Below the pieces are notes generated by a model. The model searched no databases. It saw only the letters and a list, made by a program, of their open reading frames with translations, and was not told the origin of the DNA. Both the position numbers and the translations under genes were made by a program. From Candidatus Omnitrophota bacterium (GTDB lineage Bacteria > Omnitrophota > Gorgyraeia > Gygaellales > Profunditerraquicolaceae), in contig VGKG01000003.1 in the NCBI GenBank assembly GCA_016867115.1, positions 64,673 through 128,672 of the forward strand: 64,000 nucleotides of DNA, written 5' to 3'. Positions 6,095 to 45,366 of the stretch are shown here, piece after piece. Each line of letters opens with the position of its first letter. Position 1 is the stretch's first letter.

Positions 6095-6104
6095 CGGAGG
6101 AAAT

Positions 6105-6431: not shown

Positions 6432-6439
6432 AGGCGTCT

Positions 6440-10572: not shown

Positions 10573-10968
10573 ATGTCAGAGTTCAAAGATCTTTTACAGA
10601 GCGCGGACTGGAAAACGGAGAAGCATGTCCCGGTGATCGAGGCGCCGGCCAAAACAAAGAAAGGAGAAATGCTTAAAGTCGCCTTAAGCGTGGGCAGGGA
10701 GATCGCCCATCCGAATACCACCGAGCACCACATCCGCTGGATCACGCTGTACTTCCTTCCCGACGGAGAGAAGTTTCCCTGCCAGGTCGCCAGGTTTGAG
10801 TTTACCAGCCACGGCGAATCTGTGCAGGGGCCCAACACCAGCACAATATTCACCCACCCTGAGGTTACGGCCAGTTTGAAGACTGAGAAGAGCGGACAGC
10901 TTCTGGCTGCTTCATATTGCAATATCCACGGCCTCTGGCAAAACTCGGTAAAAATAACCGTAGAGTAA
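10573..10968 (+). CDS. sor: Superoxide reductase (1Fe-SOR, neelaredoxin)
   Basis: Near-colinear with P. furiosus SOR: EKHVPVIE, HPNTTEHHIRWI, YCNIHGLW Fe ligands. Confidence 0.9.
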   Translation: MSEFKDLLQSADWKTEKHVPVIEAPAKTKKGEMLKVALSVGREIAHPNTTEHHIRWITLYFLPDGEKFPCQVARFEFTSHGESVQGPNTSTIFTHPEVTASLKTEKSGQLLAASYCNIHGLWQNSVKITVE

Positions 10969-10987
10969 GCAGACATTATACGAGGAG

Positions 10988-11317
10988 GTGTCTATGATCA
11001 TGGAAAGGCTAATGGGTTTATGCGCGGTTGTTCCCGCCACTCTCCTGCTGACCGTCAGTTTCTTTGTCCTGGTCGTCATCCAGCGGATAGAAAAAGCAGG
11101 ACTCAAGGCTTTTGGTTATGTGGTAGCTGCGCTCCTCTGGTTGGGTGTAGCGCTGGTGGGTTCTCTGGGAATTTATACTCTGGCTACCGGCCGTCCTCCG
11201 ATGATGTGCATGATGCGCGCTAAGATGTGCGAGATGATGGTGTCCGGGATGATGGGCGTCAAAGAAGGCATGATGAAGCCCGGCCCCATGGAAAAGATGC
11301 CTGCGGCACAGAAATAA
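10988..11317 (+). CDS. Small membrane protein with a Met-rich C-terminal tail
   Basis: Two TM helices followed by PPMMCMMRAKMCEMMVSGMMGVKEGMMKPGPMEKMP (18 Met and 2 Cys in 40 aa). Confidence 0.5.
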   Translation: MSMIMERLMGLCAVVPATLLLTVSFFVLVVIQRIEKAGLKAFGYVVAALLWLGVALVGSLGIYTLATGRPPMMCMMRAKMCEMMVSGMMGVKEGMMKPGPMEKMPAAQK

Positions 11318-11341
11318 AAGGCCTGCTATAAACGCCCAATA

Positions 11342-13129
11342 ATGAACGGATTAAAACTTACGGTAAATGCGCTTAAGGTCCTTGAGCGAAGGTATCTTCT
11401 GAAGGATGACCGTAGACGCGTCATTGAGACGCCCGATGGGCTTTTCCGGCGTGTAGCCCGGCACGTCGCCGGGGCGCAAGATAATTTCCGTAGGCGCACG
11501 GTAAGCCGGCGGGAGGCAGAAGAAAGGTTCTTCGGCATGATGCGTTCCCTTGAGTTCATGCCCAACTCTCCCACCCTGATGAATGCCGGCACAAAGATCG
11601 CTCAGCTCTCCGCCTGTTTTGTCATTCCAGTTCCGGACTCGATCCCCAGGATCTTCGGCGCCCTGAAACAGATGGCCACGATCCACCAGACCGGCGGAGG
11701 AACGGGTTTTGATCTTTCCTCTCTGCGCCCCAAAGGGGACCTGGTCTATTCCACTAAGGGCGAAGCTTCCGGAGCGGTCTCCTTTATGAGTATCTTTGAC
11801 GCGGCGACCGGAGTGATCGTGCAGGGCGGCCGGCGCCGCGGGGCGAATATGGGGATCCTGCGCGTGGACCATCCGGATATCCTGGAATTCATCCGGGCAA
11901 AACTCAGGGAAGGCGCATTCGCCAACTTTAATCTCTCGGTCGCAGCCACGGACAGGTTCATGCGGGCCTGCTATGCGGACGGCTCTTATGCGCTGATCAA
12001 CCCCCGGACAAAAAAAGAATCCGGCAGGCTTAAGGCGCGTAAGGTCTTTGATTTGATCGTGGAGTGCGCCTGGAAGACCGGAGACCCGGGCATGGTCTTT
12101 ATCGACGAGATCAACCGGCATAATCCTACACCCGGGGTAGGCTCGATTGCCGCGACTAATCCTTGCGGAGAGCTGCCGCTCCTGCCTTATGAGAGCTGTA
12201 ATCTCGCCTCGCTTAACCTCTCTAAGTTCGTCGATAGAGGCGGAAAGATGAACTGGCATAAGCTTTCGGAGCGCATACGCTGGGGCGTGCGCTTTTTGGA
12301 TAATGTCATTGAAGTAAATAAATTTCCTCTGCCTGAGATCAGGAAGATCACCTTTGCTAACCGTAAGATCGGACTCGGGGTAATGGGTTTTGCCGATATG
12401 CTTATCCTCTTAGGTATACCCTACAATTCAAAAGTAGCGATTGATTTCTCCTGCAAGCTTATGCGCTTTATGCGCCAGGAATCGCTAAATGCCTCGCATA
12501 ATCTGGCCAGGGAGCGCGGGGTATTTCCGAATTTCACAAAATCTATATATGCGAAAAAGAACCTAAAGTTACGTAACGCCGCGGTAAACACCATAGCGCC
12601 CACCGGTACGATCAGCATTATCGCCGGATGCTCAAGCGGCATTGAGCCGCTCTTTGCCATCAGCTTTACCCGCAATGTTTTAGGAGGCCAGAAGCTGCTT
12701 GAGGCCAATCCCGTGTTTGAACGCGTAGCCAGAGAGCGAAAATTTTACAGCGCTTCTCTGATGGCCGAGATCTCAAGGCGCGGCTCGATCCAGAAGATAA
12801 AAGGCATACCCGGCGACGTAAAAAATATCTTTATTACGGCTTTTGATGTCAGGCCTTCCGAGCATCTTTACATCCAGGCCGCATTCCAGAAATATACGGA
12901 TAATTCAGTTTCCAAGACGGTGAACCTCCCCAGCCAGGCGCGGCCGGAAGATATCCGGCGTATTTATTTACTGGCCCATAAGCTTAGATGCAAGGGGATC
13001 ACGGTCTACCGCTACGGCACGAAGAAGGAACAGGTGCTCTCTTTTCCCGGCGCCGGAAGAAAGGCTAAGCCAGTAGTCGCCTCTTCGGTTTATTCCGGCG
13101 GCACCTGCGCCAGCGAAGTCTGCGCGTAA
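11342..13129 (+). CDS. nrdJ: Adenosylcobalamin-dependent ribonucleotide reductase (class II, NrdJ)
   Basis: ERRYLLKD...ETP N-terminus, NPCGE active-site motif, 595 aa. Confidence 0.8.
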   Translation: MNGLKLTVNALKVLERRYLLKDDRRRVIETPDGLFRRVARHVAGAQDNFRRRTVSRREAEERFFGMMRSLEFMPNSPTLMNAGTKIAQLSACFVIPVPDSIPRIFGALKQMATIHQTGGGTGFDLSSLRPKGDLVYSTKGEASGAVSFMSIFDAATGVIVQGGRRRGANMGILRVDHPDILEFIRAKLREGAFANFNLSVAATDRFMRACYADGSYALINPRTKKESGRLKARKVFDLIVECAWKTGDPGMVFIDEINRHNPTPGVGSIAATNPCGELPLLPYESCNLASLNLSKFVDRGGKMNWHKLSERIRWGVRFLDNVIEVNKFPLPEIRKITFANRKIGLGVMGFADMLILLGIPYNSKVAIDFSCKLMRFMRQESLNASHNLARERGVFPNFTKSIYAKKNLKLRNAAVNTIAPTGTISIIAGCSSGIEPLFAISFTRNVLGGQKLLEANPVFERVARERKFYSASLMAEISRRGSIQKIKGIPGDVKNIFITAFDVRPSEHLYIQAAFQKYTDNSVSKTVNLPSQARPEDIRRIYLLAHKLRCKGITVYRYGTKKEQVLSFPGAGRKAKPVVASSVYSGGTCASEVCA

Positions 13130-13141
13130 AGAGGGTTATTG

Positions 13142-14803
13142 ATGAACGAAGTTTCGTTTTTGATCGGAGGAAAAGCCGGGTTTGGCATTGATAAATCCGG
13201 GACGGTTATCGCCGGGATCCTGAACCGGATGGGATACCGGATTTATATCTACCGCGACTATCCTTCGCTTATCCGCGGCGGGCATACTTTTTCCATTATC
13301 CGGGCATCCAAAACCAGGGTTGCCTGTCACCTGAATAAAGTCGATATCATCTTAGCCCTGAATCAGGACACCTTTAATTTCCATAAGGCCAGATTAAAAG
13401 AAGATTCCCTGATCATCTCTGATTCCGATGTCGTGAAAATCGAAGGGGTAAGCAACAGGGTAATAGGCATTCCCATTACCGGGATGGTCAAAGAAGAGAA
13501 TGCAGCTGAAATCATGCGGAATACCTGTGTTATCGGAGCACTCTGTAAAGCCGCAGGCATCAGCTGGGATATCTTAGATGAGATATTCAGGAAAGAGTTC
13601 ACTAAAGAGATAGATATAAATTTAAAGATTGCCCGCCGGGGCTTTGACGCTGCCAGAGAGGAGAAGAGGATTGAAGGCTTAGGCCAGGCGCCGCTGGCCA
13701 TGCTTACCGGCAATCAGGCAGCGGGGCTGGGGCTGATCCGGGGAGGCCTTAAAACTTATATTTCCTATCCCATGACCCCTTCTTCGCCCATCTTGCATTT
13801 TCTTGCCGAGATGGCGCCGGATTTCGGCCTGAAGGTGATCCATCCGGAGAGCGAGATCGGCGTGGTCCTGATGGCCCTGGGAGCTTCCTACATGGGCGAG
13901 AGGGTTGCGGTCGGTACTTCAGGCGGAGGTTTTTGTCTGATGACCGAGGGCCTGAGCTTTAGCGGGATGAGTGAGCTTCCGGTAGTATTTATCGTCGGAC
14001 AAAGGCCAGGCCCGAGCACCGGACTCCCCACTTATTCAGCGCAGACAGAACTCCATTTTGTCTTAAATGCCGGGCAGGGAGAGTTTGTGCGTCTTGTGGT
14101 TGCGCCGGCTGACCCCGAAGAAGCCTATTACTGGTCAGCAGTAAGTTTAGCTTTAAGCCAAAAATACCAGATACCAGGGATTATTCTCACGGATAAGAAT
14201 ATGGGCGAGGGGACCTTCAACTTTGACCTTTCAAGCATGGGGGAGATAAGAGAAGAACCGCCGCTTCTCTGGGACAGAAAATCCGAATATAAGCGGTATC
14301 TGGATACAGAGAACGGGGTCTCGCCTTTGGCTTTTGTGCCGGATAGAAATGCTATTGTCAAGGTGAATAGCTATGAACATGACGAATACGGCATCACTGC
14401 TGAGGACCAGCAGATAACGACCCGGATGAATGATAAGCGGTTGCGTAAGGCTACGTATTTAGCCAAAGATCTGGAAGGATACCCATGCGTAAAGACCTAC
14501 GGCAATAAAGATTCTTCGACCGTCTTATTATGCTGGGGTTCAAATAAGGGAGTCTGCGTCGAGGCAGCGGAGAGAAGCGGCCTTAAAGTGGTCCAGCCTT
14601 TGGTACTTTGGCCTTTTCCGGTGAAGCAATTTCAGGATGCGCTTCAGGGAGTTAAGAAGTTGATCTGTGTAGAGAATAATGCTACAGGGCAGCTTACCCG
14701 GCTCCTTAAGGCGCAGGGATTTGGCACAGATAAACAGATCTTAAAATACGACGGCAGGCCTTTTTCCCTGGATGAATTGCAGGAAAGACTAAGCGGGGTT
14801 TAA
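13142..14803 (+). CDS. korA: 2-oxoacid:ferredoxin oxidoreductase, fused gamma-alpha subunit (KorA/PorGA-like)
   Basis: N-terminal gamma-domain GGKAGFGI, alpha-domain motifs, 554 aa; start taken at ATG 13142 rather than the TTG at 13139. Confidence 0.8.
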   Translation: MNEVSFLIGGKAGFGIDKSGTVIAGILNRMGYRIYIYRDYPSLIRGGHTFSIIRASKTRVACHLNKVDIILALNQDTFNFHKARLKEDSLIISDSDVVKIEGVSNRVIGIPITGMVKEENAAEIMRNTCVIGALCKAAGISWDILDEIFRKEFTKEIDINLKIARRGFDAAREEKRIEGLGQAPLAMLTGNQAAGLGLIRGGLKTYISYPMTPSSPILHFLAEMAPDFGLKVIHPESEIGVVLMALGASYMGERVAVGTSGGGFCLMTEGLSFSGMSELPVVFIVGQRPGPSTGLPTYSAQTELHFVLNAGQGEFVRLVVAPADPEEAYYWSAVSLALSQKYQIPGIILTDKNMGEGTFNFDLSSMGEIREEPPLLWDRKSEYKRYLDTENGVSPLAFVPDRNAIVKVNSYEHDEYGITAEDQQITTRMNDKRLRKATYLAKDLEGYPCVKTYGNKDSSTVLLCWGSNKGVCVEAAERSGLKVVQPLVLWPFPVKQFQDALQGVKKLICVENNATGQLTRLLKAQGFGTDKQILKYDGRPFSLDELQERLSGV

Positions 14804-14804
14804 T

Positions 14805-15656
14805 ATGGAACAGAAGGATCTAGGGACATATGCTCAGAATACCTGGTGCCCGGGTTGCGGCAACTTCGCAATACTAAACGCCATCAAGACGGTGCTTGGC
14901 GAATTGAATGCCGAAGGACTTCCGCTTGAGAATGTAGTCCTGGTCTCGGGGATCGGCTGCCACGCAAAGATAGTCGATTATATCAATGTGAACAGTTTTT
15001 ATTCTATTCACGGAAGGGTGACTCCTGCGGCAGAGGCGATCAGGCTTGGTGATCCAAAGATGAAGGTCATTGGTTTTGCCGGAGACGGGGATGCCTACGG
15101 AGAGGGGATCGAGCATCTGATCTTCGCTGCCAAGCGTAACATCGATATTACCATGGTCATCCATAATAACCGCGTCTATGGCCTGACTACCGGCCAATAT
15201 ACGCCCACCTCTCCTCAGGGCTACCGGGGCCGCTCTACTCCGGAGGGGACAAAGGAGCTGCCGATCAATCCTTTGGAATTGATGCTGGCAAGCGGTGCAA
15301 CGTACCTCGGCCGCGGGACATCCCACGGCATAGAGCTTTTAAAAAAGCTCTTTAAAGAGGCGATCCTGCATAAGGGCTTCTCCCTGGTAGATGTCCTGCA
15401 GGTCTGCGTCACTTATTTCAATATGTACGAATATTACGATAAGCGGGTCTACGAATTAAAGGATCATAATCCCCTGGATTATCAGCAGGCGCTGAACAAG
15501 ATCCGGGAGTGGGATTACAACCGGGATGCCCGGATCGCCCTCGGCACTTTTTATAAAAGAGGATCCCCTACTTTTGAGGAAGGCTTCTTTAAACAGGCCG
15601 TGCCTCCTCCGGAGAGGATGGAAAAGATAAGGCTGATTTTAGAGTCCTCAATTTAG
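14805..15656 (+). CDS. korB: 2-oxoacid:ferredoxin oxidoreductase beta subunit (TPP-binding)
   Basis: WCPGCGNF, GIGCH and GDGD TPP motifs. Confidence 0.8.
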   Translation: MEQKDLGTYAQNTWCPGCGNFAILNAIKTVLGELNAEGLPLENVVLVSGIGCHAKIVDYINVNSFYSIHGRVTPAAEAIRLGDPKMKVIGFAGDGDAYGEGIEHLIFAAKRNIDITMVIHNNRVYGLTTGQYTPTSPQGYRGRSTPEGTKELPINPLELMLASGATYLGRGTSHGIELLKKLFKEAILHKGFSLVDVLQVCVTYFNMYEYYDKRVYELKDHNPLDYQQALNKIREWDYNRDARIALGTFYKRGSPTFEEGFFKQAVPPPERMEKIRLILESSI

Positions 15657-15663
15657 CCCCACT

Positions 15664-15689
15664 TGTAAACAGAATAAGTATGATATAAT
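15664..15689 (+). promoter_or_regulatory. Promoter with extended -10 (TTGTAA ... TGATATAAT) for the rubredoxin-led O2-defence operon
   Basis: TTGTAA at 15664-15669, TGaTATAAT at 15681-15689, then a GAGAGGAGA RBS. Confidence 0.4.
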
Positions 15690-15728
15690 AATTTCTTCTA
15701 AAATAATACTCGAGAGAGGAGACTGATT

Positions 15729-15887
15729 ATGGACAAATACAGATGTACGGTTTGCGGCTATATTTATGACCCGGCAGCAGGGGATCCTACCCAGGGTATT
15801 GCTCCGAATACGCCTTTTGAGACTCTGCCGGAGAGCTGGGTATGTCCCGAATGCGGGGTGACCAAGGATATGTTTGAAAAAGCCTAA
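15729..15887 (+). CDS. Rubredoxin
   Basis: 52 aa; CTVCGY...WVCPECG tetracysteine motif; not in the ORF track because it is shorter than 60 aa. Confidence 0.9.
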
Positions 15888-15896
15888 AGGAGAGAA

Positions 15897-16748
15897 ATGC
15901 CCCGGACAATCACTTTTAAAGGCAATCCTTTGACCTTAGCCGGCAGGCCGGTAAAACTGGAAGCGCCTGCCCCGGATTTTTTAGTCACCTCGCAGGATTT
16001 AAAAGAAGTGCGCCTGGCTGATTTTAAGGGAAAGATCAAGATCCTCACCTCCTTTCCCTCCCTGGATACCCCGGTCTGTGACCTGCAGGTTAAGGAGTTT
16101 AATAAACGCGCCACCGGCTTTTCGTCAGATGTAGTCATAGCCGGGATAAGCAAGGACCTTCCCTTTGCCCAAAAAAGGTTCTGTGAGACCTTTGAGATCA
16201 AAGGTGTTTCCGTAGTCTCAGACTATAAGACTTCCTCCTTCGGGATAAACTACGGCCTGCTCATTAAAGAGCTGAATCTTCTGGCCAGGTCAGTCTGTAT
16301 CGTAGACAAACAGGATATTGTGAGGTATTTCCAGCTGGTGGGGGAATTGACCTATGCGCCCGACTATGAGGATGTGCTAAAAGCGCTGGATGCAGTCATC
16401 CGCAATCCCATCCTTACCCCTAGGCAAGAGTTGCCGGGTAAATGTAAGCCTTGTGAAGGCGGAGTTCAGACTTTACCTAAAGATACGATTGAGAAATTGC
16501 TCGCCCAGCACCGCGGCTGGCAGCTGGTCGAGGATAAAAAGATCAGCAAAGATTTCAAATTTAAGGACTTCCCGGAAGCAAAATACTTCGTGGATCTGGT
16601 CGCGGTGACTGCGGAGGAACAGGGGCATCATCCTGCTATCACCATCGTCTACAATAAGGTGAAGATCGCCCTGACTACGCACGCCGCAGGCGGGCTTACG
16701 GAAAATGACTTTATTATGGCGCGCCTGATCGATGAGCTCGGAGGTTAG
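15897..16748 (+). CDS. Fusion protein: thiol peroxidase Tpx (atypical 2-Cys peroxiredoxin) plus pterin-4a-carbinolamine dehydratase (PCD/DCoH) domain
   Basis: Residues 1-165 colinear with E. coli Tpx (PSLDTPVCD peroxidatic Cys, DLPFAQKRFC resolving Cys); residues about 190-283 carry the PCD signature E-x2-GHHPAI...TH. Confidence 0.75.
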   Translation: MPRTITFKGNPLTLAGRPVKLEAPAPDFLVTSQDLKEVRLADFKGKIKILTSFPSLDTPVCDLQVKEFNKRATGFSSDVVIAGISKDLPFAQKRFCETFEIKGVSVVSDYKTSSFGINYGLLIKELNLLARSVCIVDKQDIVRYFQLVGELTYAPDYEDVLKALDAVIRNPILTPRQELPGKCKPCEGGVQTLPKDTIEKLLAQHRGWQLVEDKKISKDFKFKDFPEAKYFVDLVAVTAEEQGHHPAITIVYNKVKIALTTHAAGGLTENDFIMARLIDELGG

Positions 16749-16750
16749 CG

Positions 16751-17254
16751 ATGAAAAGAATAGCGGTATTGGTCGAAGAGGCCTATCAGGTGCTGGAGGT
16801 ATGGTACCCGTATTTAAGGCTGCGGGAAGAAGGGTTCCAGACCGTATTAGTCGGCACCGGAAAGAAGGCCTATAAAAGCAAAGACGGCTATCCGGCTGAA
16901 GAGGAGCTGGCCATAAAAGACGCAGACCCCGCTGATTTTGACGCCGTGGTCATCCCCGGCGGCTGGGCCCCGGATTTTTTACGCAGGTCGCCTGAAGTGT
17001 TGAATCTTATCAGAGATATGGATAAACAGGGAAAGGTCATCGCCTCTATCTGCCACGGCGGATGGGTCCTGGCTTCTGCGGGGATACTAAGGGGCAGGAC
17101 CGTAACCAGTTTTTCGGCGATTAAAGATGACGTGGTCAATGCCGGGGCAAAGTTCCTGGATCAGGAGGTAGTGGTAGATAAGAACCTGATTACTTCGCGC
17201 AACCCCTGTGATCTGCCGGCCTTCTGTAGGGAAATTATAAAGGGGATAAAATAA
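16751..17254 (+). CDS. DJ-1/PfpI family protein (class I glutamine amidotransferase-like)
   Basis: ICHGGWVL nucleophile elbow, 167 aa. Confidence 0.75.
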   Translation: MKRIAVLVEEAYQVLEVWYPYLRLREEGFQTVLVGTGKKAYKSKDGYPAEEELAIKDADPADFDAVVIPGGWAPDFLRRSPEVLNLIRDMDKQGKVIASICHGGWVLASAGILRGRTVTSFSAIKDDVVNAGAKFLDQEVVVDKNLITSRNPCDLPAFCREIIKGIK

Positions 17255-17255
17255 A

Positions 17256-17966
17256 ATGACTCAGACCATCGATGCAAAAATAAAAGAAGTGATCCAGCGA
17301 ACCGGTAACGTAAAGAGCGTGCGCCTGGAATTGCCCGAGATCGCAGAATATAAAGCAGGGCAGTTCGGCTGCGTATTTCTTAAAACTGAGCCGGTCTGCC
17401 ACCGGTATCTCTCCATCTCCAGCTCTCCGACGGAAGAGGGATACCTTGAGTTCACCAAAAAATTAAGAGGGAGCGACTTTGCCTCCGGTTTCCTTAAGTT
17501 AAAACCCGGGGATGTAGTCGGCGTACAGTATCCGATGGGAAAGTTCACCCTGGAAGATAACGGGATGCCGGAAAAATGCGCCTTTCTTTCCGGAGGCATC
17601 GGCATTACTCCTATCAGAAGCATAGTGAAATCCGCGGTAGACAAGAATCTGGGCATAGATATGGTATTGATCTATGCCAACCAGACAGTAAGGGACATAG
17701 TCTTTCACGATGACCTGGAAAAGATGCAGGAAGTTTACCCTAAGTTCAGGCTCGCGCATGTGCTCTGCGAGCCGGCGCCGGATTTTAAATGTTCTGTCGG
17801 CCTGATCAACAGCCGGGTGATCAAGAATGAAATACCGGATTATTCCGAGAGGAAGTTTTTCCTCTGCGGCCCGCCGCCGATGGTGGAAGGGATGAAGAAG
17901 ATCCTGAGCGAAGAACTAAAGCTGCCCCAAGAGCAGATCGTCACTGAGAACTTTGCCGGGTATTAA
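17256..17966 (+). CDS. FNR-family FAD/NAD(P)-binding oxidoreductase (candidate NAD(P)H:rubredoxin reductase)
   Basis: RYLSISS (RxYS FAD motif), GGIGITP, C-terminal CGPPPM; no Fe-S domain. Confidence 0.65.
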   Translation: MTQTIDAKIKEVIQRTGNVKSVRLELPEIAEYKAGQFGCVFLKTEPVCHRYLSISSSPTEEGYLEFTKKLRGSDFASGFLKLKPGDVVGVQYPMGKFTLEDNGMPEKCAFLSGGIGITPIRSIVKSAVDKNLGIDMVLIYANQTVRDIVFHDDLEKMQEVYPKFRLAHVLCEPAPDFKCSVGLINSRVIKNEIPDYSERKFFLCGPPPMVEGMKKILSEELKLPQEQIVTENFAGY

Positions 17967-18011
17967 AATACAGTAGATAGCAGTTAGCAGGTAGCATTCA
18001 GGGAGGAAAAT

Positions 18012-19199
18012 ATGTCAGCGATTAAAATATTACCGGATATCTACTCTGTGGGAGCGGCAGACTGGAATGTGCGCACCTTTCACGGCCACACCTACAGCAC
18101 AAAGAGAGGCACGACTTATAACGCCTATCTGATTGTGGACGAAAAAATCGCGTTGGTGGATACCGTTTACGGCCCATTTGCCAAGGAGCTGATCGAGAAT
18201 ATCCGCGAGGTTATTCCGGTTGAGAAAATAGATTATGTGATCGCTAACCACGTTGAGACTGACCACTCCGGAGCCCTGCCTGAAGTGATGAAGCTCTGCC
18301 CCAAGGCCAAGGTGATCGGCACGCAGAAATGTAAAGAGGGGCTCTTTAAGCACTATTACGGAAACTGGGATTTTCAGGTGGTCAAGACCGGGGATAAGAT
18401 CAGCCTTGGCAAAAGGGAGCTGGCCTTTATCGAAGCGCCGATGATCCACTGGCCGGACAGCATGTTCACTTACTGCCCGCAGGAAGAGCTGCTCATGCCT
18501 AATGACGCCTTTGGCCAGCATATCGCTACCAGCGAACGTTTTGCCGATGAAGTCGACCCCTGTGCGCTCTGGGATGAGGCCTCTAAATACTATGCCAATA
18601 TCCTCTGGCCGCTGGGTGCGGTCATTGCCAGAAAGATCGATGAAGTCCTTAAGATGAATATCCCCATAAAATCAATCGCTCCCAGCCACGGTGTGATCTG
18701 GAGAAAAGAGCCCTTAAAAATAGTCCAGGCCTATGCTGCCTGGGCAAGAAATGAAACTAAGCCCAAAGTAGTAGTGGCCTATGAATCCATGTGGGGCGCA
18801 ACTCAGATGATGGCCAAAAAAATAGTTGAAGGGATCATCGATGCCGGTATCAGCGTCAAGCTCTATGACGTAGCCGCTAGCGACCGCACCGAGATCATCA
18901 ACGATATGCTGGAGGCAAAAGGTTTTCTCTTCGGCTCATCCACCCATGATAATGACATGCTTCCTAATTTTGCCGGATTCCTTGAGTTTGTCAGGGGCCT
19001 GGCGCCGAAAAACAGGATTGCTTCCGTATTTGGATCCTATGGCTGGGCAGGAGGGGCAGCGAAAGAGATCGAAACTGTGCTTAAAGAAACGGGAATAGAG
19101 CTGGCCATGCCTTCTTTAACCGTAAAATATGTTCCCGATGAAGCGGAAACCAAGCGCTGCTATGATTTTGGCCGGGACTTTGCCGCCAGGATAAAATAA
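18012..19199 (+). CDS. fprA: Flavodiiron protein (FprA / rubredoxin:oxygen oxidoreductase)
   Basis: Metallo-beta-lactamase-like diiron domain (HVETDHSG) followed by a flavodoxin domain (SMWGAT). Confidence 0.85.
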   Translation: MSAIKILPDIYSVGAADWNVRTFHGHTYSTKRGTTYNAYLIVDEKIALVDTVYGPFAKELIENIREVIPVEKIDYVIANHVETDHSGALPEVMKLCPKAKVIGTQKCKEGLFKHYYGNWDFQVVKTGDKISLGKRELAFIEAPMIHWPDSMFTYCPQEELLMPNDAFGQHIATSERFADEVDPCALWDEASKYYANILWPLGAVIARKIDEVLKMNIPIKSIAPSHGVIWRKEPLKIVQAYAAWARNETKPKVVVAYESMWGATQMMAKKIVEGIIDAGISVKLYDVAASDRTEIINDMLEAKGFLFGSSTHDNDMLPNFAGFLEFVRGLAPKNRIASVFGSYGWAGGAAKEIETVLKETGIELAMPSLTVKYVPDEAETKRCYDFGRDFAARIK

Positions 19200-19202
19200 A
19201 GG

Positions 19203-19664
19203 ATGAAAAAGATCCCGGAAAATATCCTGCGTTTTTTTCAGAACCAGGGTTTTGTCATAGTCTCTACTATAGATAAGTCAGGCCTGGTGCACAGTGCCTG
19301 CAAGGGCATAGTAAAGATCGAAGGCACGGGAAGAATATACCTGCTCGACCTTTATCGGGCCAGGACCTATATAAATCTAAAAAATAATCCCGCCATCAGC
19401 GTCACTGCCGTTGATGAGCATAAGTTCAGCGGCTGGTGCCTTAAGGGCAGGGCGAAGATACTCAACGCCGGTGAAGTGAGCGGGGAATTGATCAGGGAGT
19501 GGGAGGCAAAGATCTCCGGAAGGATCGCCTACCGGCTCCTTAAGAATATCCGCGAGGAAAAAGGGCACCCCCGGCATCCTGAGTCTCAGCTGCCCAAGCC
19601 GCAGTATATGATTCTGATGGAAGCCGAAGAGATCGTGGACCTTACCCCGCAGCACCTTAAGTAA
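19203..19664 (+). CDS. Pyridoxamine 5'-phosphate oxidase-like FMN-binding protein
   Basis: Split-barrel PNPOx-like fold (GFVIVSTIDKSGL...); 153 aa. Confidence 0.5.
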   Translation: MKKIPENILRFFQNQGFVIVSTIDKSGLVHSACKGIVKIEGTGRIYLLDLYRARTYINLKNNPAISVTAVDEHKFSGWCLKGRAKILNAGEVSGELIREWEAKISGRIAYRLLKNIREEKGHPRHPESQLPKPQYMILMEAEEIVDLTPQHLK

Positions 19665-19685
19665 AGAAATAAGACAGGAGGAGGA

Positions 19686-20162
19686 ATGGGCAATATATTT
19701 GCTGGCAGTGAAGTCGTAGAGATCGGCATACAGATCGAAAAGAACGGCAGGGATTTTTATAACGCCCTCGTCACGCAATCCAAAGCCCCTGAGGCAGCGG
19801 AGCTTTTCAAGTTCTTGGCTAAGGAAGAAGAGAAGCACATTGAGATGTTCCGCAAAATCCTGGAAACTGCCACAAAGTACGAACCGCAAGGGTTAGATTC
19901 CGACGAATATTATGCCTATATGCAATCTCTTGCAAGCGATTATGTGTTTACGCAGAAGGATAAAGGTGCAGAGATCGCTAAGCAGATAAAAAGCGACCAC
20001 GAAGCCGTAGAAATGGGTATCGGCTTTGAGAAGGACTCCATTATCTTTTACGAAGGAATAAAAAAAGCGGTCCCGGATTACGACCAGAAGATCGTGGATG
20101 CCCTGATCGCCCAGGAGCAGGAGCATTTAAGGAGATTGATCGACTTAAGAAGCGCGCTCTAA
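19686..20162 (+). CDS. Ferritin-like/rubrerythrin-like diiron protein with no rubredoxin domain
   Basis: Two E-x2-H half-sites (EEEKHIE, EQEHLRR) in a four-helix-bundle-sized protein. Confidence 0.55.
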   Translation: MGNIFAGSEVVEIGIQIEKNGRDFYNALVTQSKAPEAAELFKFLAKEEEKHIEMFRKILETATKYEPQGLDSDEYYAYMQSLASDYVFTQKDKGAEIAKQIKSDHEAVEMGIGFEKDSIIFYEGIKKAVPDYDQKIVDALIAQEQEHLRRLIDLRSAL

Positions 20163-20180
20163 CTGAAGAGAAAGGATAAA

Positions 20181-20417
20181 ATGGCTAAAAACGTAAGGAT
20201 TTACAGCACGCCTACCTGCCCCTGGTGCATCCGCACCAAACAGTTCTTAAAGGACAATAATGTGGTTTTTGAGGATGTAGATGTCTCCGGTGACCAGCAG
20301 GCCGCAGAAGAGATGGTCCGCAAATCCGGCCAGATGGGCGTGCCGGTCCTGGATATCGAGGGCGAGATCATCGTCGGGTTTGATAAGGATAGGATCAAAA
20401 AAGCACTGGGAATATAA
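20181..20417 (+). CDS. Glutaredoxin-like protein (CPWC)
   Basis: 78 aa, YSTPTCPWC active site. Confidence 0.7.
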   Translation: MAKNVRIYSTPTCPWCIRTKQFLKDNNVVFEDVDVSGDQQAAEEMVRKSGQMGVPVLDIEGEIIVGFDKDRIKKALGI

Positions 20418-20419
20418 AT

Positions 20420-21325
20420 ATGTATGACCTGATTATCATAGGCGCCGGCCCCGCCGGGATTACTGCCGGAGTCTATGCTGCGCGCAAAAACATGGACCTT
20501 CTGGTGGTTACCGGGGATATCGGCGGCCAGGCCGCGGTCAGCGGAGACATTGAAAATTATACCGGTTATCAGTTCATTACCGGGCCGGAGCTTGCGGCGA
20601 AGTTCGAGGAGCACATCCATAATTACGCGGTTACGGTAAAAGAGAATGAGTCTGTAAGGGAATTACGCAAGTCCGGGGATAAGGTCATCGTGGTTTCGGA
20701 TAAGGAAACCTATGAGGCCCGCTCGGTGATCATTGCCTCGGGAAAAAGATCAAGGGAGCTGAACGTTCCCGGAGAAAAGGAGTTTAAGAATAAGGGCCTG
20801 ACCTATTGCGCTACCTGCGATGCTCCGCTCTTTAGGGGGAAGGATGTCGCGGTGATCGGAGGAGGCAATTCCGCGCTCGATGCCGTCCTGCAGCTGACGA
20901 AGATCGCCCGCAGTATCTATCTGATCAACATTAATCCCGCTCTTGGCGGTGATGCGGTGATGCGCCAGAAGGTCTTAGGAAGCCCTAATGCCAAGGTGTT
21001 GAATAATGCGCAAACGACGGCAATCACCGGCGATAGTATGGTAAGCGGGATCAGAGTCAAATGCGATGGCCGCGAAGAAGTGCTTCCGGTTCAGGGAATA
21101 TTTGTGGAGATCGGTCTGGTCCCGAATTCTGATTTCGCTAAAGACATTGAGAAGAATGATTTGGGCGAAATAAAGATAAATTGCCGCAATGAAACGAATA
21201 TCCCGGGGATCTTTGCTGCCGGAGATGTCACCGATGTCCCGGAGAAGCAGATCATTATCGCAGCAGGTGAAGGCTCAAAGGCCTGCCTTAGCGCCTTCCG
21301 GTACTTAGCGGAACATAGATTCTAA
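20420..21325 (+). CDS. trxB: Thioredoxin reductase-like FAD-dependent disulfide oxidoreductase
   Basis: IIGAGPAG, CATCDAP redox-active disulfide, GGGNSA and AAGDV motifs. Confidence 0.8.
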   Translation: MYDLIIIGAGPAGITAGVYAARKNMDLLVVTGDIGGQAAVSGDIENYTGYQFITGPELAAKFEEHIHNYAVTVKENESVRELRKSGDKVIVVSDKETYEARSVIIASGKRSRELNVPGEKEFKNKGLTYCATCDAPLFRGKDVAVIGGGNSALDAVLQLTKIARSIYLININPALGGDAVMRQKVLGSPNAKVLNNAQTTAITGDSMVSGIRVKCDGREEVLPVQGIFVEIGLVPNSDFAKDIEKNDLGEIKINCRNETNIPGIFAAGDVTDVPEKQIIIAAGEGSKACLSAFRYLAEHRF

Positions 21326-21331
21326 ATTTCT

Positions 21332-22285
21332 ATGGTAAATCTAAAACTGATAAAACAAAAGATTCTCAGGGCAAAGCGTATCGCAGTGGCCAGCCACATC
21401 AACCCTGACGGCGATTCGCTGGGTTCGCTCCTCTCCCTGGGGTTGGCCTTAAAAAAGCTGGGCAAGCGCGTCTATCTCCTGAGCCCTGACGGCGTACCTA
21501 AAAGATACCGCCGGCTCCCCGGGGCAGGAGGGATTATCCGTAAATTAAATAAGCCGGTGGACCTGGCGGTCGCAGTTGACTGCAGCAACCGCGAGATCCT
21601 GGGTAGATCCTGGGGGACCTTTCAGAAGGCAAAGGATATTTTAGAGATTGACCACCACGAATTCCGGCGGCCGTTCGGAAATATCCGCCTCGTGGATACC
21701 CGGGCTGCAGCAGTGGGCGAATTGATCTACCCCCTCTTAAAGGACCTAAAGATAAACATCGATACAGCCATAGCGCAAAACCTCCTGACCTCAGTGGTGG
21801 TTGAGACCGATTCCTTCCGGCTACCGAACGTCCGGCCCTTTACCTTTGAGATCTGCCACGATTTAATGAAAAAGAAAGTGGATTTCTATAAGCTGGTGGA
21901 TATGGTCTTTTGGTCAAAAACTAAGGAGTCCACGATTCTTTCCGGTATTTGTATGGCCAGATGCAAGTTCCTGAAGAACGGCCGGCTGGCCTGGTCTATT
22001 GTGCGCCAGAAAGATTTCCGCAACCAGAAGGGTAAAGACGAAGACGTAGACCCGGTAGCCGATGAGATGCGTTCGATCAAGGGCGTGAGGATCGCGGTAT
22101 TTTTCCGGGAAAAGGATAACTCGACATTACGGGTGAGCCTGCGCTCAAAGGGCAAGATTAATGTCGCGGGGATAGCCGAGCATTTCGGGGGAGGCGGCCA
22201 CTTTGATGTGGCGGGCTGCTCCATAGCGAATAAACCGAAAGCAATGAATAAGCTCCTTGCCATGGCCAAAACCTTATTGAAATAG
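21332..22285 (+). CDS. nrnA: DHH/DHHA1 phosphoesterase, NrnA-like nanoRNase/pAp phosphatase
   Basis: HINPDGDSLGS, DHH and C-terminal GGGGH motifs. Confidence 0.75.
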   Translation: MVNLKLIKQKILRAKRIAVASHINPDGDSLGSLLSLGLALKKLGKRVYLLSPDGVPKRYRRLPGAGGIIRKLNKPVDLAVAVDCSNREILGRSWGTFQKAKDILEIDHHEFRRPFGNIRLVDTRAAAVGELIYPLLKDLKINIDTAIAQNLLTSVVVETDSFRLPNVRPFTFEICHDLMKKKVDFYKLVDMVFWSKTKESTILSGICMARCKFLKNGRLAWSIVRQKDFRNQKGKDEDVDPVADEMRSIKGVRIAVFFREKDNSTLRVSLRSKGKINVAGIAEHFGGGGHFDVAGCSIANKPKAMNKLLAMAKTLLK

Positions 22286-22687
22286 ATGATCCAAAAGACA
22301 AAGTTCACTGAACTAAAAAAAGTTTTTAGTACTTTGCACGGGCCGAAAGGCTGCCTCTGGGATAAAGAGCAGACGCATAAGAGCCTTATCCCCTATCTTA
22401 AGGAAGAAGCGGATGAGTTTATCGCTACTGTCAGGAAGGGCACTTACGCGCACATGCGCGATGAGCTGGGAGACCTCCTGCTGCAGGTGATGTTCCATTC
22501 CCAGATCGCGAAGAAAGACGGAAAGTTTGACGTAGAAGACGTGATCGATACCCTGATCAAGAAACTGAAACGCCGCCATCCCCATGTCTTTGGCAAGGTA
22601 AAGGTAAGGTCCAGCCGCGAGATCATCGCTAACTGGCACAAAATTAAAGCGCAGGAGAAGAGAGGTAAAAGGCATGCTAAAGTATAA
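22286..22687 (+). CDS. mazG: MazG-family nucleoside triphosphate pyrophosphohydrolase
   Basis: EEADEF and ELGDLLLQV EE-x2-E motifs. Confidence 0.75.
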   Translation: MIQKTKFTELKKVFSTLHGPKGCLWDKEQTHKSLIPYLKEEADEFIATVRKGTYAHMRDELGDLLLQVMFHSQIAKKDGKFDVEDVIDTLIKKLKRRHPHVFGKVKVRSSREIIANWHKIKAQEKRGKRHAKV

Positions 22688-23503: not shown

Positions 23504-23529
23504 GATCTTAGCAGGAAAATAGGTCAATC

Positions 23530-23690
23530 ATAGGCGGGGAGGTCGTAATACGGCCTGAGAGTCTCCGTTTAGACGGGGTTACCCGATGAACCTGAACTGG
23601 ATAATGCCAGCGGAGGGAAGGAGCGTGATGGATAATAGACCCGATGCATCTGGCAAAGGGTCTTTTTATTTCTGCGGGCAGCCAGAAAAC
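23530..23690 (+). promoter_or_regulatory. TPP riboswitch (THI element) with terminator-type expression platform
   Basis: CUGAGA ... ACCUGA ... GGAUAAUGCCAGCG ... AGGGAA THI-box hallmarks at 23557-23618; GACCC/GGGTC hairpin plus TTTTTATTT at 23640-23672; GGAGGG RBS before the Thi4 ATG. Confidence 0.75.
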
Positions 23691-23704: not shown

Positions 23705-24517
23705 ATGTTTAGCAAAATAACGGAAGCACAGATCAGCAGGGCGATCGTAGGAGAGTTTACCAGGTGGTTTGATGATTATATTACTTCCGATGTCATCATC
23801 GTCGGCGCCGGGCCCAGCGGCCTTATGGCAGGGCGCGACCTGGCTAATGCAGGGATCAAGACCCTGATCATCGAAAGCAACAATTATATCGGCGGAGGTT
23901 TTTGGGTCGGCGGTTATTTCATGAATACCCTGACCTTCAGGTCTCCGGCAGAGGATATCCTGGATGAACTGAAGATACCTCATAAGAGGATAGAAGACGG
24001 GTTGTCTGTCGCGGACGGCCCTTCTGCCTGCTCAAAGCTCATCTCCGCCACATGCGATTCAGGGGCAAAGATCCTGAACCTCACTAAGTTCGATGACGTG
24101 GTCCTGCGCAATCAGCGGGTTGAGGGGGCGGTGGTCAACTGGGCCCCGGTCTCGGCGTTACCCCGGCAGATCACCTGCGTAGACCCGATCGCCCTGGAAG
24201 CAAAGGTAGTGGTTGATGCTACAGGCCATGATGCCTGGGTAGCCCGGAGCCTCGAGAAGAGAGGGTTATTGAAATTGCAAAGTTTCGGCCCTATGGATGT
24301 CGTGCTTTCAGAAGGGCTGGTGGTAGAAAAGAGCGGTGAGATCTTCCCGGGGCTCTTTGCTATCGGTATGGCAGTATCTTCTGTCTACGGGATACCGCGC
24401 ATGGGGCCTACTTTTGCCGGGATGCTTTTTTCAGGAAGAAAAGCTGCTCAGGAAATAATCAAGCTATTCTCCTGCACAGGGAGCTCTACTTGTAAAGAGC
24501 CTGCCGCAGTAGTCTAA
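23705..24517 (+). CDS. thi4: Thiazole synthase Thi4 family, second paralogue, riboswitch-controlled
   Basis: IIVGAGPSGL, GGGFWVGG, VVDATGHDAWV and PRMGPTFAGMLFSG motifs. Confidence 0.85.
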   Translation: MFSKITEAQISRAIVGEFTRWFDDYITSDVIIVGAGPSGLMAGRDLANAGIKTLIIESNNYIGGGFWVGGYFMNTLTFRSPAEDILDELKIPHKRIEDGLSVADGPSACSKLISATCDSGAKILNLTKFDDVVLRNQRVEGAVVNWAPVSALPRQITCVDPIALEAKVVVDATGHDAWVARSLEKRGLLKLQSFGPMDVVLSEGLVVEKSGEIFPGLFAIGMAVSSVYGIPRMGPTFAGMLFSGRKAAQEIIKLFSCTGSSTCKEPAAVV

Positions 24518-45306: not shown

Positions 45307-45366
45307 AATACAGTGGATAGTAGGTAGCAGTTAGTAGTCAGGGAAAGACAAAAACAAAAGAAAAGA

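What the first reader, a model, noticed from the sequence alone, without database searches (positions are those of the whole stretch)
15897..16748. Fusion of thiol peroxidase Tpx with a pterin-4a-carbinolamine dehydratase (DCoH) domain
The N-terminal 165 residues are colinear with E. coli Tpx, including the peroxidatic and resolving cysteines. The C-terminal roughly 95 residues carry the PCD signature GHHP...TH. No aromatic amino-acid hydroxylase, the usual PCD partner, is nearby. The fusion hints at a moonlighting role for the PCD fold, for example as a dimerisation or cofactor scaffold for the peroxidase, or at a link between pterin recycling and peroxide stress.
Basis: seen in the sequence. 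Interest (0 to 1): 0.6.

Follow-up and report, generated by a model that had tools for sequence, protein, structure and literature searches.

The report
Peroxidase fused to pterin dehydratase
One gene in an uncultured anaerobic bacterium (Candidatus Omnitrophota) joins a peroxide-destroying enzyme (Tpx) to a pterin-recycling enzyme (PCD); the fusion is real, is conserved in about 190 relatives inside oxygen-defence gene clusters, and has not been studied, so it may point to the unknown job of PCD in organisms that lack its usual partner enzyme.

Summary
Window 15897-16748 (+) is one uninterrupted 283-aa ORF. Residues 4-165 match the Tpx thiol-peroxidase model and residues 191-281 match the PCD model, both above curated cut-offs. 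It is not a frameshift artefact: the identical protein occurs on at least 8 independent contigs, and 192 non-redundant fusion proteins were collected, about 21 clusters at 50% identity, mostly Candidatus Omnitrophota. 90% of them keep the peroxidatic Cys, the resolving Cys, an N-terminal PCD CxxC and the PCD His triad together. A deep-alignment AlphaFold model (pLDDT 93, pTM 0.89) suggests fixed packing of the two domains. The gene lies in a tightly packed O2/ROS-defence operon that also encodes a Cp9/Cp34-like Grx/TrxR pair, the probable Tpx reductant. In about 20 neighbourhoods the neighbours are antioxidant genes and never pterin, folate, Moco or hydroxylase genes. Best reading: an active peroxidase with a catalytically competent PCD domain that clears 4a-carbinolamines of oxidised pterins. 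This part is inferred. Rivals are a scaffold role, a CxxC thiol relay, and mere co-expression. The architecture is already in databases as 'thiol peroxidase', and no paper on it was found. Verdict: a new variant of known kinds, of moderate interest.

The parts
15897..16748 (+). Complete Tpx-PCD fusion gene (283 aa plus TAG stop)
   Evidence: the identical protein is on at least 8 independent contigs
15887..15892 (+). Shine-Dalgarno-like AAGGAG, overlapping the rubredoxin stop codon
   Evidence: read directly from the sequence
15897..16391 (+). Tpx (atypical 2-Cys peroxiredoxin) domain, residues 1-165
   Evidence: NF001808 at 176.6 bits against cut-off 123; PDB Tpx hits at E 1e-40; fold TM 0.91-0.96 to solved Tpx
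16077..16079 (+). Peroxidatic cysteine C61 (TGT) in the P54-x3-T58-x2-C61 motif
   Evidence: invariant in A1; present in 190 of 192 fusions
16182..16184 (+). Resolving cysteine C96 (TGT), in FAQKRFC
   Evidence: invariant in A1; lost only in 8 divergent singletons
16392..16442 (+). Inter-domain linker, residues 166-182 (lower model confidence, pLDDT 73-77)
16443..16454 (+). C183-K-P-C186 motif at the N-terminus of the PCD module
   Evidence: invariant in A1; the homologous CxxC is present in stand-alone PCDs of Clostridia, Proteobacteria and haloarchaea
16470..16745 (+). PCD/DCoH domain, residues 192-283
   Evidence: PF01329 at 106.7 bits; NF002017 above cut-off; PDB DCoH2 at E 3e-15
16626..16634 (+). 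Catalytic H244-H245-P246 (CAT CAT CCT); with Y252, H262 (16680-16682) and D271 this completes the published PCD signature
15729..15887 (+). Rubredoxin, 9 nt upstream of the fusion
   Evidence: PF00301 at E 2e-24; the same position in L027-L033 and L091
16751..17254 (+). DJ-1/PfpI-family protein (C101-H102), 2 nt downstream of the fusion
   Evidence: PF01965 at E 3e-51; TIGR01382 at 168.9 bits against cut-off 139; follows the fusion in 7 further GTDB loci and in L091-L094
17256..17966 (+). FNR-like FAD/NAD(P)H reductase
   Evidence: 58-65% identical orthologues follow the stand-alone Tpx in L027-L033
18012..19199 (+). Flavodiiron protein (ODP plus flavodoxin)
20181..20417 (+). 78-aa glutaredoxin-like redoxin with active site C-P-W-C; probable direct reductant of the Tpx domain
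   Evidence: orthologue annotated PF00462 in L091 and L088; Cp9-type redoxins reduce peroxiredoxins (PMC3720550)
20420..21325 (+). TrxR/AhpF-C-terminal-like flavoprotein disulfide reductase (C130-A-T-C133)
10573..15656 (+). Upstream part of the same tightly packed gene string: superoxide reductase, a small ORF, ribonucleotide reductase, and two-subunit 2-oxoacid:ferredoxin oxidoreductase
   Evidence: intergenic gaps of 72 nt or less from 10573 to 22687

Best explanation
The gene encodes a two-domain antioxidant enzyme of an anaerobic Omnitrophota bacterium. Shown by computation: the N-terminal half is a complete atypical 2-Cys thiol peroxidase (Tpx); the C-terminal half is a complete PhhB-type pterin-4a-carbinolamine dehydratase with every signature residue; the two halves are predicted to pack into one rigid body; and the gene is co-transcribed in an O2/ROS-defence operon. 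Inferred, step 1: C61 reduces H2O2 or organic hydroperoxides, forms a disulfide with C96, and is recycled by the Cp9-like CPWC redoxin (20181-20417) and the TrxR-like flavoprotein (20420-21325) using NAD(P)H. Inferred, step 2: the PCD domain dehydrates 4a-hydroxy (carbinolamine) adducts that form when reduced pterins (folates, molybdo- or tungstopterin, other tetrahydropterins) meet O2 or peroxide. This returns them to the reducible quinonoid dihydro form before they rearrange irreversibly. Fusing the domains places this clean-up next to peroxide removal. In the strongest form of the idea, Tpx itself produces the carbinolamine by reducing a pterin 4a-hydroperoxide.
For: Domain identity is above curated cut-offs. 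Tpx residues T58, C61, C96 and R131, and PCD residues E240, H244, H245, P246, Y252, H262 and D271, are invariant across 32 fusions of 67-77% identity. 118 of 120 close relatives keep HHP..[YWF]..H..D. 173 of 192 non-redundant fusions keep Cp, Cr, the CxxC and the His triad together. The fold model has pLDDT 93.4 and pTM 0.89, and the Tpx half superposes on reduced Tpx structures at 1.0-1.7 A. The operon from 10573 to 22687 has gaps of 72 nt or less. It holds SOR, OFOR, Rd, the fusion, DJ-1, an FNR-like reductase, FDP, a PNPOx-like protein, rubrerythrin, a Grx-like protein and a TrxR-like protein. The same kinds of neighbours recur in about 20 other loci, including hemerythrin, ferritin, SOD, WrbA-like reductase and PntAB. 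A stand-alone Tpx occupies the identical slot in sister Omnitrophota, so the Tpx half keeps its ordinary job. Cp9-type redoxins are known peroxiredoxin reductants (PMC3720550). Non-enzymatic oxidation of a reduced pterin does yield a 4a-hydroxy adduct that decays irreversibly: 5-methyl-THF goes to hmTHF and then MeFox (PMC12622545). PCDs active in organisms without hydroxylases are documented and have been linked to Moco metabolism (PMC3223725 table; Naponelli et al. 2008, from own knowledge, paper not held).
Against: No pterin, folate, Moco or hydroxylase gene lies next to the fusion in the 64-kb window or in any of about 20 other neighbourhoods. A sister lineage (L027-L033) appears to have dropped the PCD half while keeping the same operon. 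So PCD is dispensable for the peroxidase. A few divergent fusions keep the PCD fold after losing its histidines, which needs a non-catalytic explanation in those lineages. Free pterin 4a-hydroperoxides are short-lived (own knowledge), so direct hand-over from Tpx to PCD is speculative. No activity has been measured. The model's inter-domain geometry could not be inspected because no coordinates were available.
Confidence: 0.42

Rival explanations
1. The PCD domain is a structural module. Its fold, known for forming dimers and tetramers and for binding partner proteins, would control the oligomeric state of Tpx or dock it onto another protein, and pterin chemistry would be irrelevant.
For: The PCD fold moonlights as a protein-binding module in DCoH-HNF1 complexes and in acRAF; both DCoH-HNF1 entries and acRAF 4low appear among the PDB hits (roles from own knowledge). 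The model predicts rigid packing of the two domains (pTM 0.89). 8 of 21 divergent 50%-identity clusters keep the domain after losing the His triad. No pterin genes lie nearby.
Against: In the window's clade the whole catalytic signature, including residues with no obvious structural role, is kept in 118 of 120 sequences and in 173 of 192 fusions overall. The known non-catalytic PCD-like proteins have lost these residues (own knowledge). The degenerate fusions are single-sequence clusters.
Confidence: 0.2
2. The junction CxxC (C183/C186) is a built-in thiol relay. It would accept the oxidising equivalent from the Tpx C61-C96 disulfide or from C61-SOH and pass it to the TrxR-like reductase. This would resemble the fused redoxin modules of AhpF or of Prx-Grx hybrid proteins.
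For: The CxxC is invariant in the main clade. All four divergent fusions that lost the resolving Cys but kept an intact PCD also keep the CxxC (P0126, P0129, P0133, P0147). Other partners fused to Tpx also carry reactive cysteines, as in Rhodanese-Tpx-PCD and Rhodanese-Tpx. The neighbouring reductase resembles the AhpF C-terminal part without its redoxin domain.
Against: The CxxC is ancestral to stand-alone PCDs in Clostridia, alpha- and gamma-Proteobacteria and haloarchaea, so it was not acquired for the fusion. It does not lie in a thioredoxin fold. A separate CPWC redoxin gene is present to do this job. The same Grx/TrxR pair accompanies stand-alone Tpx in sister genomes. The Cr-loss/CxxC association rests on 6 sequences against 13 and is not significant.
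Confidence: 0.13
3. The two enzymes are independent and fused only for co-expression. The PCD would do a housekeeping job for Moco or folate unrelated to peroxide removal, with no physical or kinetic coupling to Tpx.
For: The PCD half was apparently lost in L027-L033 without rearranging the operon. PCDs without a hydroxylase partner are widespread and have been linked to Moco. GC content is uniform across the gene, with no sign of selection on the linker.
Against: The fusion has been maintained over a family reaching down to about 35% identity, with a short conserved-length linker and a confident fixed inter-domain arrangement. Within the limits of a single unbootstrapped NJ tree, the Tpx halves of all fusions form one side of a single split, consistent with one origin followed by long retention. 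The fusion always lies in ROS-defence contexts.
Confidence: 0.2

Closest known systems
Thiol peroxidase Tpx (atypical 2-Cys peroxiredoxin; E. coli, B. subtilis, Aquifex, S. aureus)
   Same: It is colinear over residues 1-165 at 39-46% identity. It has the same PxxxTxxC peroxidatic motif, a resolving Cys 35 residues downstream, the conserved Arg and the same fold, with TM 0.91-0.96.
   Different: It carries a 118-residue C-terminal extension (linker plus PCD domain). No solved structure covers both domains; the best query TM-score is 0.56. The likely reductant is a Cp9-like CPWC redoxin with a TrxR-like flavoprotein, not classical thioredoxin; no WCGPC ORF is present in the window.
Bacterial PhhB-type pterin-4a-carbinolamine dehydratase (COG2154, PF01329), including those in organisms without aromatic amino-acid hydroxylases
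   Same: It has the full catalytic signature, the N-terminal K-x-C-x-[AP]-C-x-x-G-x-x-P-L motif and the NDFIMA helix. It is 36-45% identical to stand-alone PCDs of Acetoanaerobium, Sinorhizobium and Methylocystis and 45-50% identical to mammalian DCoH2 over 76 residues.
   Different: It is not a free protein of about 100 aa but is fused behind a peroxidase. It has no hydroxylase or Moco gene context. It is embedded in an anaerobe's O2-defence operon.
Clostridium pasteurianum Cp20/Cp9/Cp34 peroxiredoxin system and AhpC/AhpF
   Same: It has a small glutaredoxin-like redoxin plus a TrxR-like flavoprotein encoded together with a peroxiredoxin.
   Different: The peroxiredoxin here is a Tpx, not an AhpC type, and it carries the PCD domain. 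The reductase lacks the N-terminal redoxin domain of AhpF.
Non-catalytic PCD-like scaffolds (alpha-carboxysome acRAF, plant RAF2) and DCoH as HNF1 dimerisation cofactor
   Same: It has the same fold. These proteins are the precedent for PCD acting through protein-protein contacts (acRAF 4low is a weak PDB hit at E 5e-4).
   Different: Those proteins have lost the catalytic histidines (own knowledge). The window protein and 90% of its family keep them.

Membership tests
Tpx subfamily of peroxiredoxins | Match to the curated Tpx family model above its cut-off | tested here: met
   NF001808 at 176.6 bits against cut-off 123, residues 4-165
Tpx subfamily of peroxiredoxins | Peroxidatic Cys in the P-x3-T/S-x2-C motif plus the conserved active-site Arg | tested here: met
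   P54-S-L-D-T58-P-V-C61 and R131, invariant in A1
Tpx subfamily of peroxiredoxins | Resolving Cys about 34 residues after Cp (E. coli C95), which forms an intramolecular disulfide | tested here: met
   C96 in FAQKRFC aligns with the Tpx resolving Cys. Disulfide formation itself is not testable here.
Tpx subfamily of peroxiredoxins | Thioredoxin-like Prx fold with the N-terminal beta-hairpin of Tpx | tested here: met
   The model has strands 4-7 and 10-15. Foldseek gives TM 0.91-0.96 and rmsd 1.0-1.7 A to 3p7x, 2yzh, 2xpd and 3hvv.
Tpx subfamily of peroxiredoxins | Redoxin-dependent hydroperoxide reductase activity | not testable with these tools
   This needs an enzyme assay. A candidate reductant pair is encoded at 20181-21325.
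Pterin-4a-carbinolamine dehydratase (PCD/DCoH, PF01329/COG2154) | Match to curated family models above cut-off | tested here: met
   PF01329 at 106.7 bits against 26 over the full-length profile. NF002017 at 91.3 bits against 80; four sibling NCBIfam models fall below their cut-offs.
Pterin-4a-carbinolamine dehydratase (PCD/DCoH, PF01329/COG2154) | Activity signature [EDKH]-x3-H-[HN]-[PCS]-x5,6-[YWF]-x9-[HW]-x8,15-D (Naponelli et al. 2008, recalled from own knowledge) | tested here: met
   The motif is E240 EQG H244 H245 P246 AITIV Y252 NKVKIALTT H262 AAGGLTEN D271. The regex is matched by the identical protein P0001 and by 108 of 120 relatives, and 118 of 120 match a relaxed first position.
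Pterin-4a-carbinolamine dehydratase (PCD/DCoH, PF01329/COG2154) | Dehydration of 4a-hydroxytetrahydropterins | not testable with these tools
   This needs an enzyme assay or E. coli complementation.
Pterin-4a-carbinolamine dehydratase (PCD/DCoH, PF01329/COG2154) | Genomic association with an aromatic amino-acid hydroxylase (classical role) or with Moco genes (proposed alternative role) | tested here: not met
   None is present in the 64-kb window or in about 20 other fusion neighbourhoods. Whole genomes could not be searched.
Non-catalytic PCD-like scaffolds (acRAF/RAF2 type) | Loss of the catalytic His residues with retention of the fold | tested here: not met
   H244, H245 and H262 are invariant in the window's clade. 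The loss is seen only in rare divergent fusions.
Peroxiredoxins with a fused redoxin relay (AhpF-NTD-like, Prx-Grx hybrids) | A CxxC located in a thioredoxin or glutaredoxin fold fused to the Prx | tested here: not met
   The CxxC lies in the N-terminal arm of the PCD module, is not in a Trx fold by Pfam, and is ancestral to stand-alone PCDs.
Cp9/Cp34-type peroxiredoxin-reducing system (neighbouring genes) | A small Grx-like redoxin with CxxC adjacent to a TrxR-like flavoprotein with CxxC, encoded with a peroxiredoxin | tested here: met
   CPWC at 20181-20417 and CATC at 20420-21325 with a 2-nt gap. The pair is conserved in L088 and L091. Its activity is not testable here.

The most novel reading that the evidence does not exclude
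The two domains would catalyse consecutive steps of a previously undescribed cofactor-repair route. Tpx would reduce the 4a-hydroperoxide formed when O2 attacks a reduced pterin or folate (or flavin) to the 4a-carbinolamine, releasing no H2O2. The fused PCD would dehydrate the carbinolamine to the reducible quinonoid form before it rearranges irreversibly. This would also give a general answer to why catalytically active PCDs persist in organisms that have no aromatic amino-acid hydroxylase.
Probability: 0.13. Interest if true: 0.8.

Novelty: new variant of a known kind. Interest (0 to 1): 0.5.

Why it matters
PCD proteins are widespread in organisms that lack the only enzymes known to generate their substrate, and their role there has been open since 2008. 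A fusion to a peroxidase that has been kept for a long evolutionary time, and that always sits in oxygen-defence operons of anaerobes, is a 'Rosetta-stone' clue. It suggests that the missing source of pterin carbinolamines is oxidative damage to reduced pterin cofactors. That makes the question directly testable with one recombinant protein and its two neighbouring reductant proteins. It also adds a new architecture to the peroxiredoxin family and to the little-known oxidative-stress biology of Omnitrophota. If the PCD half turns out to be only a scaffold, the finding is a modest addition to the list of PCD-fold moonlighting.

Tried and rejected
1. Frameshift or assembly artefact: rejected.

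2. Searches for a hydroxylase, pterin, folate or Moco partner in the window and in about 20 other neighbourhoods found nothing.

3. The literature searches found no paper on the fusion or on the PCD CxxC. Naponelli et al. 2008 is not in the held library.

4. The yeast Nfs1 pull-down that lists PCD is one entry among more than 100 proteins, so I did not treat it as evidence.

5. The neighbourhood of the closest cultured stand-alone PCD (Acetoanaerobium: CinA, NMO, HutD, barstar) was uninformative.

6. The first AlphaFold run, with 32 shallow sequences, was too poor to use (pLDDT 72.5, pTM 0.55). It was superseded.

7. The Tpx proteins with unrecognised 85-aa tails (P0139, P0144) are not detectably PCD-like (hhalign probability below 1%), so I did not count them as degenerate fusions.

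8. The search aimed at the Cr-less lineage returned mostly main-clade fusions. The Cr-less forms remain singletons, so the Cr-loss/CxxC link stays anecdotal.

10. The small no-family ORF after SOR is not conserved in the syntenic genome.
Full report
OBSERVATION

Window 15897-16748 (+) is a single 283-aa ORF with an ATG start, a TAG stop and no internal stop. An AAGGAG ribosome-binding site precedes it and overlaps the stop codon of the upstream rubredoxin gene. Pfam finds Redoxin/AhpC-TSA at residues 23-161 and a full-length Pterin_4a domain at 192-281 (E 7e-31). NCBIfam places residues 4-165 in the thiol peroxidase (Tpx) equivalog at 176.6 bits against a cut-off of 123. It places residues 191-281 in a 4a-hydroxytetrahydrobiopterin dehydratase model at 91.3 bits against a cut-off of 80.

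The N-terminal half aligns end to end with solved Tpx proteins: B. subtilis 2jsy at E 1.6e-40, and E. coli 1qxh with residues 3-165 aligned to 2-166. The C-terminal half is 45-50% identical to mammalian DCoH2 over 76 residues.

IS THE FUSION REAL?

Yes. The identical protein is found on at least 8 contigs from separate JGI and Logan assemblies. On the three contigs shown it has the same neighbours. All 120 best hits among 5.8 billion proteins are 280-301-aa proteins with both Pfam domains, at 67-100% identity. The named ones are 'MAG: thiol peroxidase [Candidatus Omnitrophota]'.

A search of 1.84 billion 50%-identity representatives finds about 21 separate clusters that match the query end to end, at 32-56% identity. 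Among GTDB species representatives, 27 of the 80 loci retained carry the full fusion. Most are Omnitrophota MAGs. A few are labelled Planctomycetia, Patescibacteria, Chlamydiota, Gammaproteobacteria or Spirochaetota by their submitters. The one locus with a frame break (L034, 1.05x coverage) is broken inside the Tpx domain and not at the junction.

I collected 192 non-redundant fusion proteins in all.

ANATOMY AND CONSERVATION

In 32 fusions of 67-77% identity the following are invariant:
- Tpx half: T58, P59, C61 (peroxidatic), C96 (resolving) and R131.
- Junction: a C183-x-P185-C186 motif.
- PCD half: H244, H245, P246, Y252, H262 and D271.

The PCD half matches the published activity signature [EDKH]-x3-H-[HN]-[PCS]-x5,6-[YWF]-x9-[HW]-x8,15-D, which I recall from Naponelli et al. 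2008 (that paper is not in the held library). 118 of 120 close relatives keep HHP...[YWF]...H...D. Across all 192 fusions, 173 (90%) keep Cp, Cr, the CxxC and the His triad together.

The remaining 10% are mostly single-sequence clusters in which one or other centre has decayed:
- Resolving Cys lost: P0126, P0129, P0133, P0147.
- His triad lost: P0127, P0128, P0134, P0135, P0138, P0142, P0145.
- Tpx dead but PCD intact: P0179.
- Both dead: P0140.

The CxxC is not an invention of the fusion. Stand-alone PCDs of Acetoanaerobium (CEAC), Sinorhizobium and Methylocystis (CTPC), Photobacterium (CEAC) and Halogeometricum (CEAC) carry it in the same K-x-C-x-x-C-x-x-G-x-x-P-L context.

Three-domain relatives exist: Rhodanese-Tpx-PCD and Rubrerythrin-Tpx-PCD.

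STRUCTURE

A shallow alignment gave a poor model. A 92-sequence alignment gave pLDDT 93.4 and pTM 0.89, with only the linker (171-190) dipping to 73-77. That suggests a fixed arrangement of the two domains rather than beads on a string, although it rests on one summary score and the interface could not be inspected.

The Tpx half superposes on reduced Tpx structures at 1.0-1.7 A with TM 0.91-0.96. No PDB entry covers both halves; the best query TM-score is 0.56.

GENOMIC CONTEXT

From 10573 to 22687 the genes are packed with gaps of 72 nt or less. In order they are:
- superoxide reductase
- a small ORF
- ribonucleotide reductase
- two-subunit 2-oxoacid:ferredoxin oxidoreductase
- rubredoxin
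- the Tpx-PCD fusion
- DJ-1/PfpI
- an FNR-like reductase
- a flavodiiron protein
- a PNPOx-like protein
- rubrerythrin
- a 78-aa glutaredoxin-like CPWC redoxin
- a TrxR/AhpF-C-like flavoprotein with a CATC motif
- a DHH phosphoesterase
- MazG

. A hybrid-cluster protein and an Rrf2 regulator lie just upstream.

The Grx-like/TrxR-like pair mirrors the Clostridium pasteurianum Cp9/Cp34 system that reduces a peroxiredoxin (PMC3720550 citing Reynolds et al. 2002). It is the obvious reductant for the Tpx half. The window has no classical thioredoxin ORF.

A nearly complete 1.19-Mb genome shows the same synteny. In other fusion loci the neighbours are hemerythrin, ferritin-like proteins, Cu/Zn- or Fe/Mn-SOD, desulfoferrodoxin, WrbA-like FMN reductases, OFOR and, in one case, PntAB transhydrogenase. 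I found no pterin, folate, molybdopterin or aromatic amino-acid hydroxylase gene in the window or beside any fusion.

EVOLUTION

In a neighbour-joining tree of Tpx domains, a single split separates all 62 'ordinary' stand-alone Tpx sequences from a group holding all 46 fused Tpx domains plus 9 stand-alone ones. One of those stand-alone groups (L027-L033, Omnitrophota) is sister to the window's clade. It sits in the very same operon slot, Rd-Tpx-FNR-like-FDP, with no PCD within 6 kb.

This fits one origin of the fusion followed by secondary loss of the PCD half. It also shows that the Tpx half does the ordinary peroxidase job. The tree has no bootstrap support and should be read as indicative only.

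DJ-1/PfpI directly follows the fusion in the window, in seven GTDB loci and in L091-L094. It never follows a stand-alone Tpx. Given shared ancestry this is suggestive only.

HOW IT MOST LIKELY WORKS

Firmly supported: the Tpx half is an active atypical 2-Cys peroxidase of an anaerobe's O2-defence operon, probably recycled by the CPWC redoxin and the TrxR-like flavoprotein.

Well supported: the PCD half retains a working pterin-carbinolamine active site. Purifying selection keeps every signature residue, whereas the known non-catalytic PCD-like scaffolds have lost them (own knowledge).

Inferred: its substrates are 4a-hydroxy adducts of reduced pterins formed by oxidative damage. Such adducts do form non-enzymatically and then rearrange irreversibly, for example 5-methyl-THF to 4a-hydroxy-5-methyl-THF to MeFox (PMC12622545). 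PCDs that are active in hydroxylase-free organisms have been linked to molybdopterin metabolism (PMC3223725).

The chemically neatest version is that Tpx reduces a pterin 4a-hydroperoxide to the carbinolamine and PCD then dehydrates it. This would make the fusion a two-step repair enzyme, but nothing here tests it directly.

I put the general 'peroxidase plus oxidised-pterin clean-up' reading at about 0.4. The rivals are:
- PCD as an oligomerisation or docking scaffold (0.2).
- The two enzymes merely co-expressed (0.2).
- The CxxC as a thiol relay (0.13).

COMPARISON WITH WHAT IS KNOWN, AND NOVELTY

Each half is a clear member of its family (see the membership table). The combination is deposited in public databases, but only under the name 'thiol peroxidase', with the PCD half unmentioned. 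The full-text searches I made, of a library that lacks most subscription-journal papers, found no paper describing it. It is therefore a new variant of known kinds and not a new kind of system.

Its value is as a Rosetta-stone clue to the unexplained function of PCD in organisms without hydroxylases, and as a new peroxiredoxin architecture. I score interest at 0.5.

LIMITS

- No activity data exist.
- Whole genomes could not be searched for pterin pathways or for second PCD copies.
- MAG taxon labels are the submitters' own.
- The degenerate variants are singletons that may include sequencing errors.
- The inter-domain packing rests on a single pTM value, without inspection of the interface.

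Noticed in passing
L086/L087 8001-13088 (Omnitrophota MAGs GCA_046542295.1 and GCA_964595465.1): A Tpx-PCD variant that lacks the resolving Cys (P0129) lies 2 nt upstream of four genes: a 445-aa rhodanese, an EgtD histidine methyltransferase (TIGR03438 at 337.6 bits against cut-off 290.9), a SufS cysteine desulfurase and SufE. This looks like an anaerobic EanB/EanA-type ergothioneine cluster. Ergothioneine or a persulfide relay may be the reductant of this 1-Cys form.
   Followed up: partly
window 20181-21325: A 78-aa glutaredoxin-like CPWC redoxin lies 2 nt upstream of a TrxR/AhpF-C-terminal-like flavoprotein (CATC). This is a Cp9/Cp34-like peroxiredoxin-reducing pair. It is conserved in L088 and L091, and the window has no classical thioredoxin.
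   Followed up: partly
window 16751-17254 and loci L005, L006, L007, L010, L016, L022, L091-L094: A PfpI-type DJ-1 gene (Cys101-His102) starts 2-27 nt after the fusion in many lineages but never follows a stand-alone Tpx. PCD and DJ-1 may travel together as a damage-repair pair.
   Followed up: partly
proteins P0121, P0133, P0123, P0143, P0193: Other architectures exist: Rhodanese-Tpx-PCD, Rubrerythrin-Tpx-PCD, Rhodanese-Tpx, and a 554-aa protein with four tandem PCD domains and a C-terminal hydrophobic segment.
   Followed up: no
window 13139-15656, and L088, L089, L091, L006, L007: A two-subunit 2-oxoacid:ferredoxin oxidoreductase is repeatedly adjacent to the fusion, immediately upstream or downstream. 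That is an odd companion for an O2-defence cluster. It may be the electron source for the rubredoxin or ferredoxin-dependent detoxification enzymes.
   Followed up: no
window 11342-13129: A 595-aa ribonucleotide reductase large-subunit gene is embedded in the ROS-defence gene string, between superoxide reductase and OFOR. The downstream Grx-like redoxin could serve it as well (NrdH-like).
   Followed up: no
window 23525-23635 and 23705-24517; also 599-1375: A TPP riboswitch (RF00059 at 59.9 bits against 54.3) lies upstream of a Thi4-family thiazole synthase. A second Thi4-family gene lies at 599-1375.
   Followed up: no
window 43419-55809: This is an MBH/Mrp-type membrane-bound [NiFe] hydrogenase-like cluster. 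It has NuoH-like, 20-kDa, 30-kDa and 49-kDa/NiFe large subunits, MbhD/E, and two antiporter-like subunits, with a PhoU-domain gene inserted at 48821-49438. It is consistent with an anaerobic, ferredoxin-based energy metabolism.
   Followed up: no
window 26253-27458: A HcyBio (sulfur-incorporating homocysteine biosynthesis) gene lies next to an Rrf2 regulator, a PLP enzyme and a class-V aminotransferase. This is the methanogen-type homocysteine pathway in a bacterium.
   Followed up: no
window 62600-63982 (-) and 10988-11317 (+): A 460-aa ORF and a 109-aa hydrophobic, Met-rich ORF have no Pfam family. The small one is not conserved in the syntenic genome L091.
   Followed up: partly
L027-L033 (Omnitrophota) 6001-6510: A stand-alone Tpx nests inside the fusion clade and occupies the same operon slot without any PCD remnant; only about 57 nt separate it from the next gene. 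This is apparent clean loss of the PCD half.
   Followed up: partly
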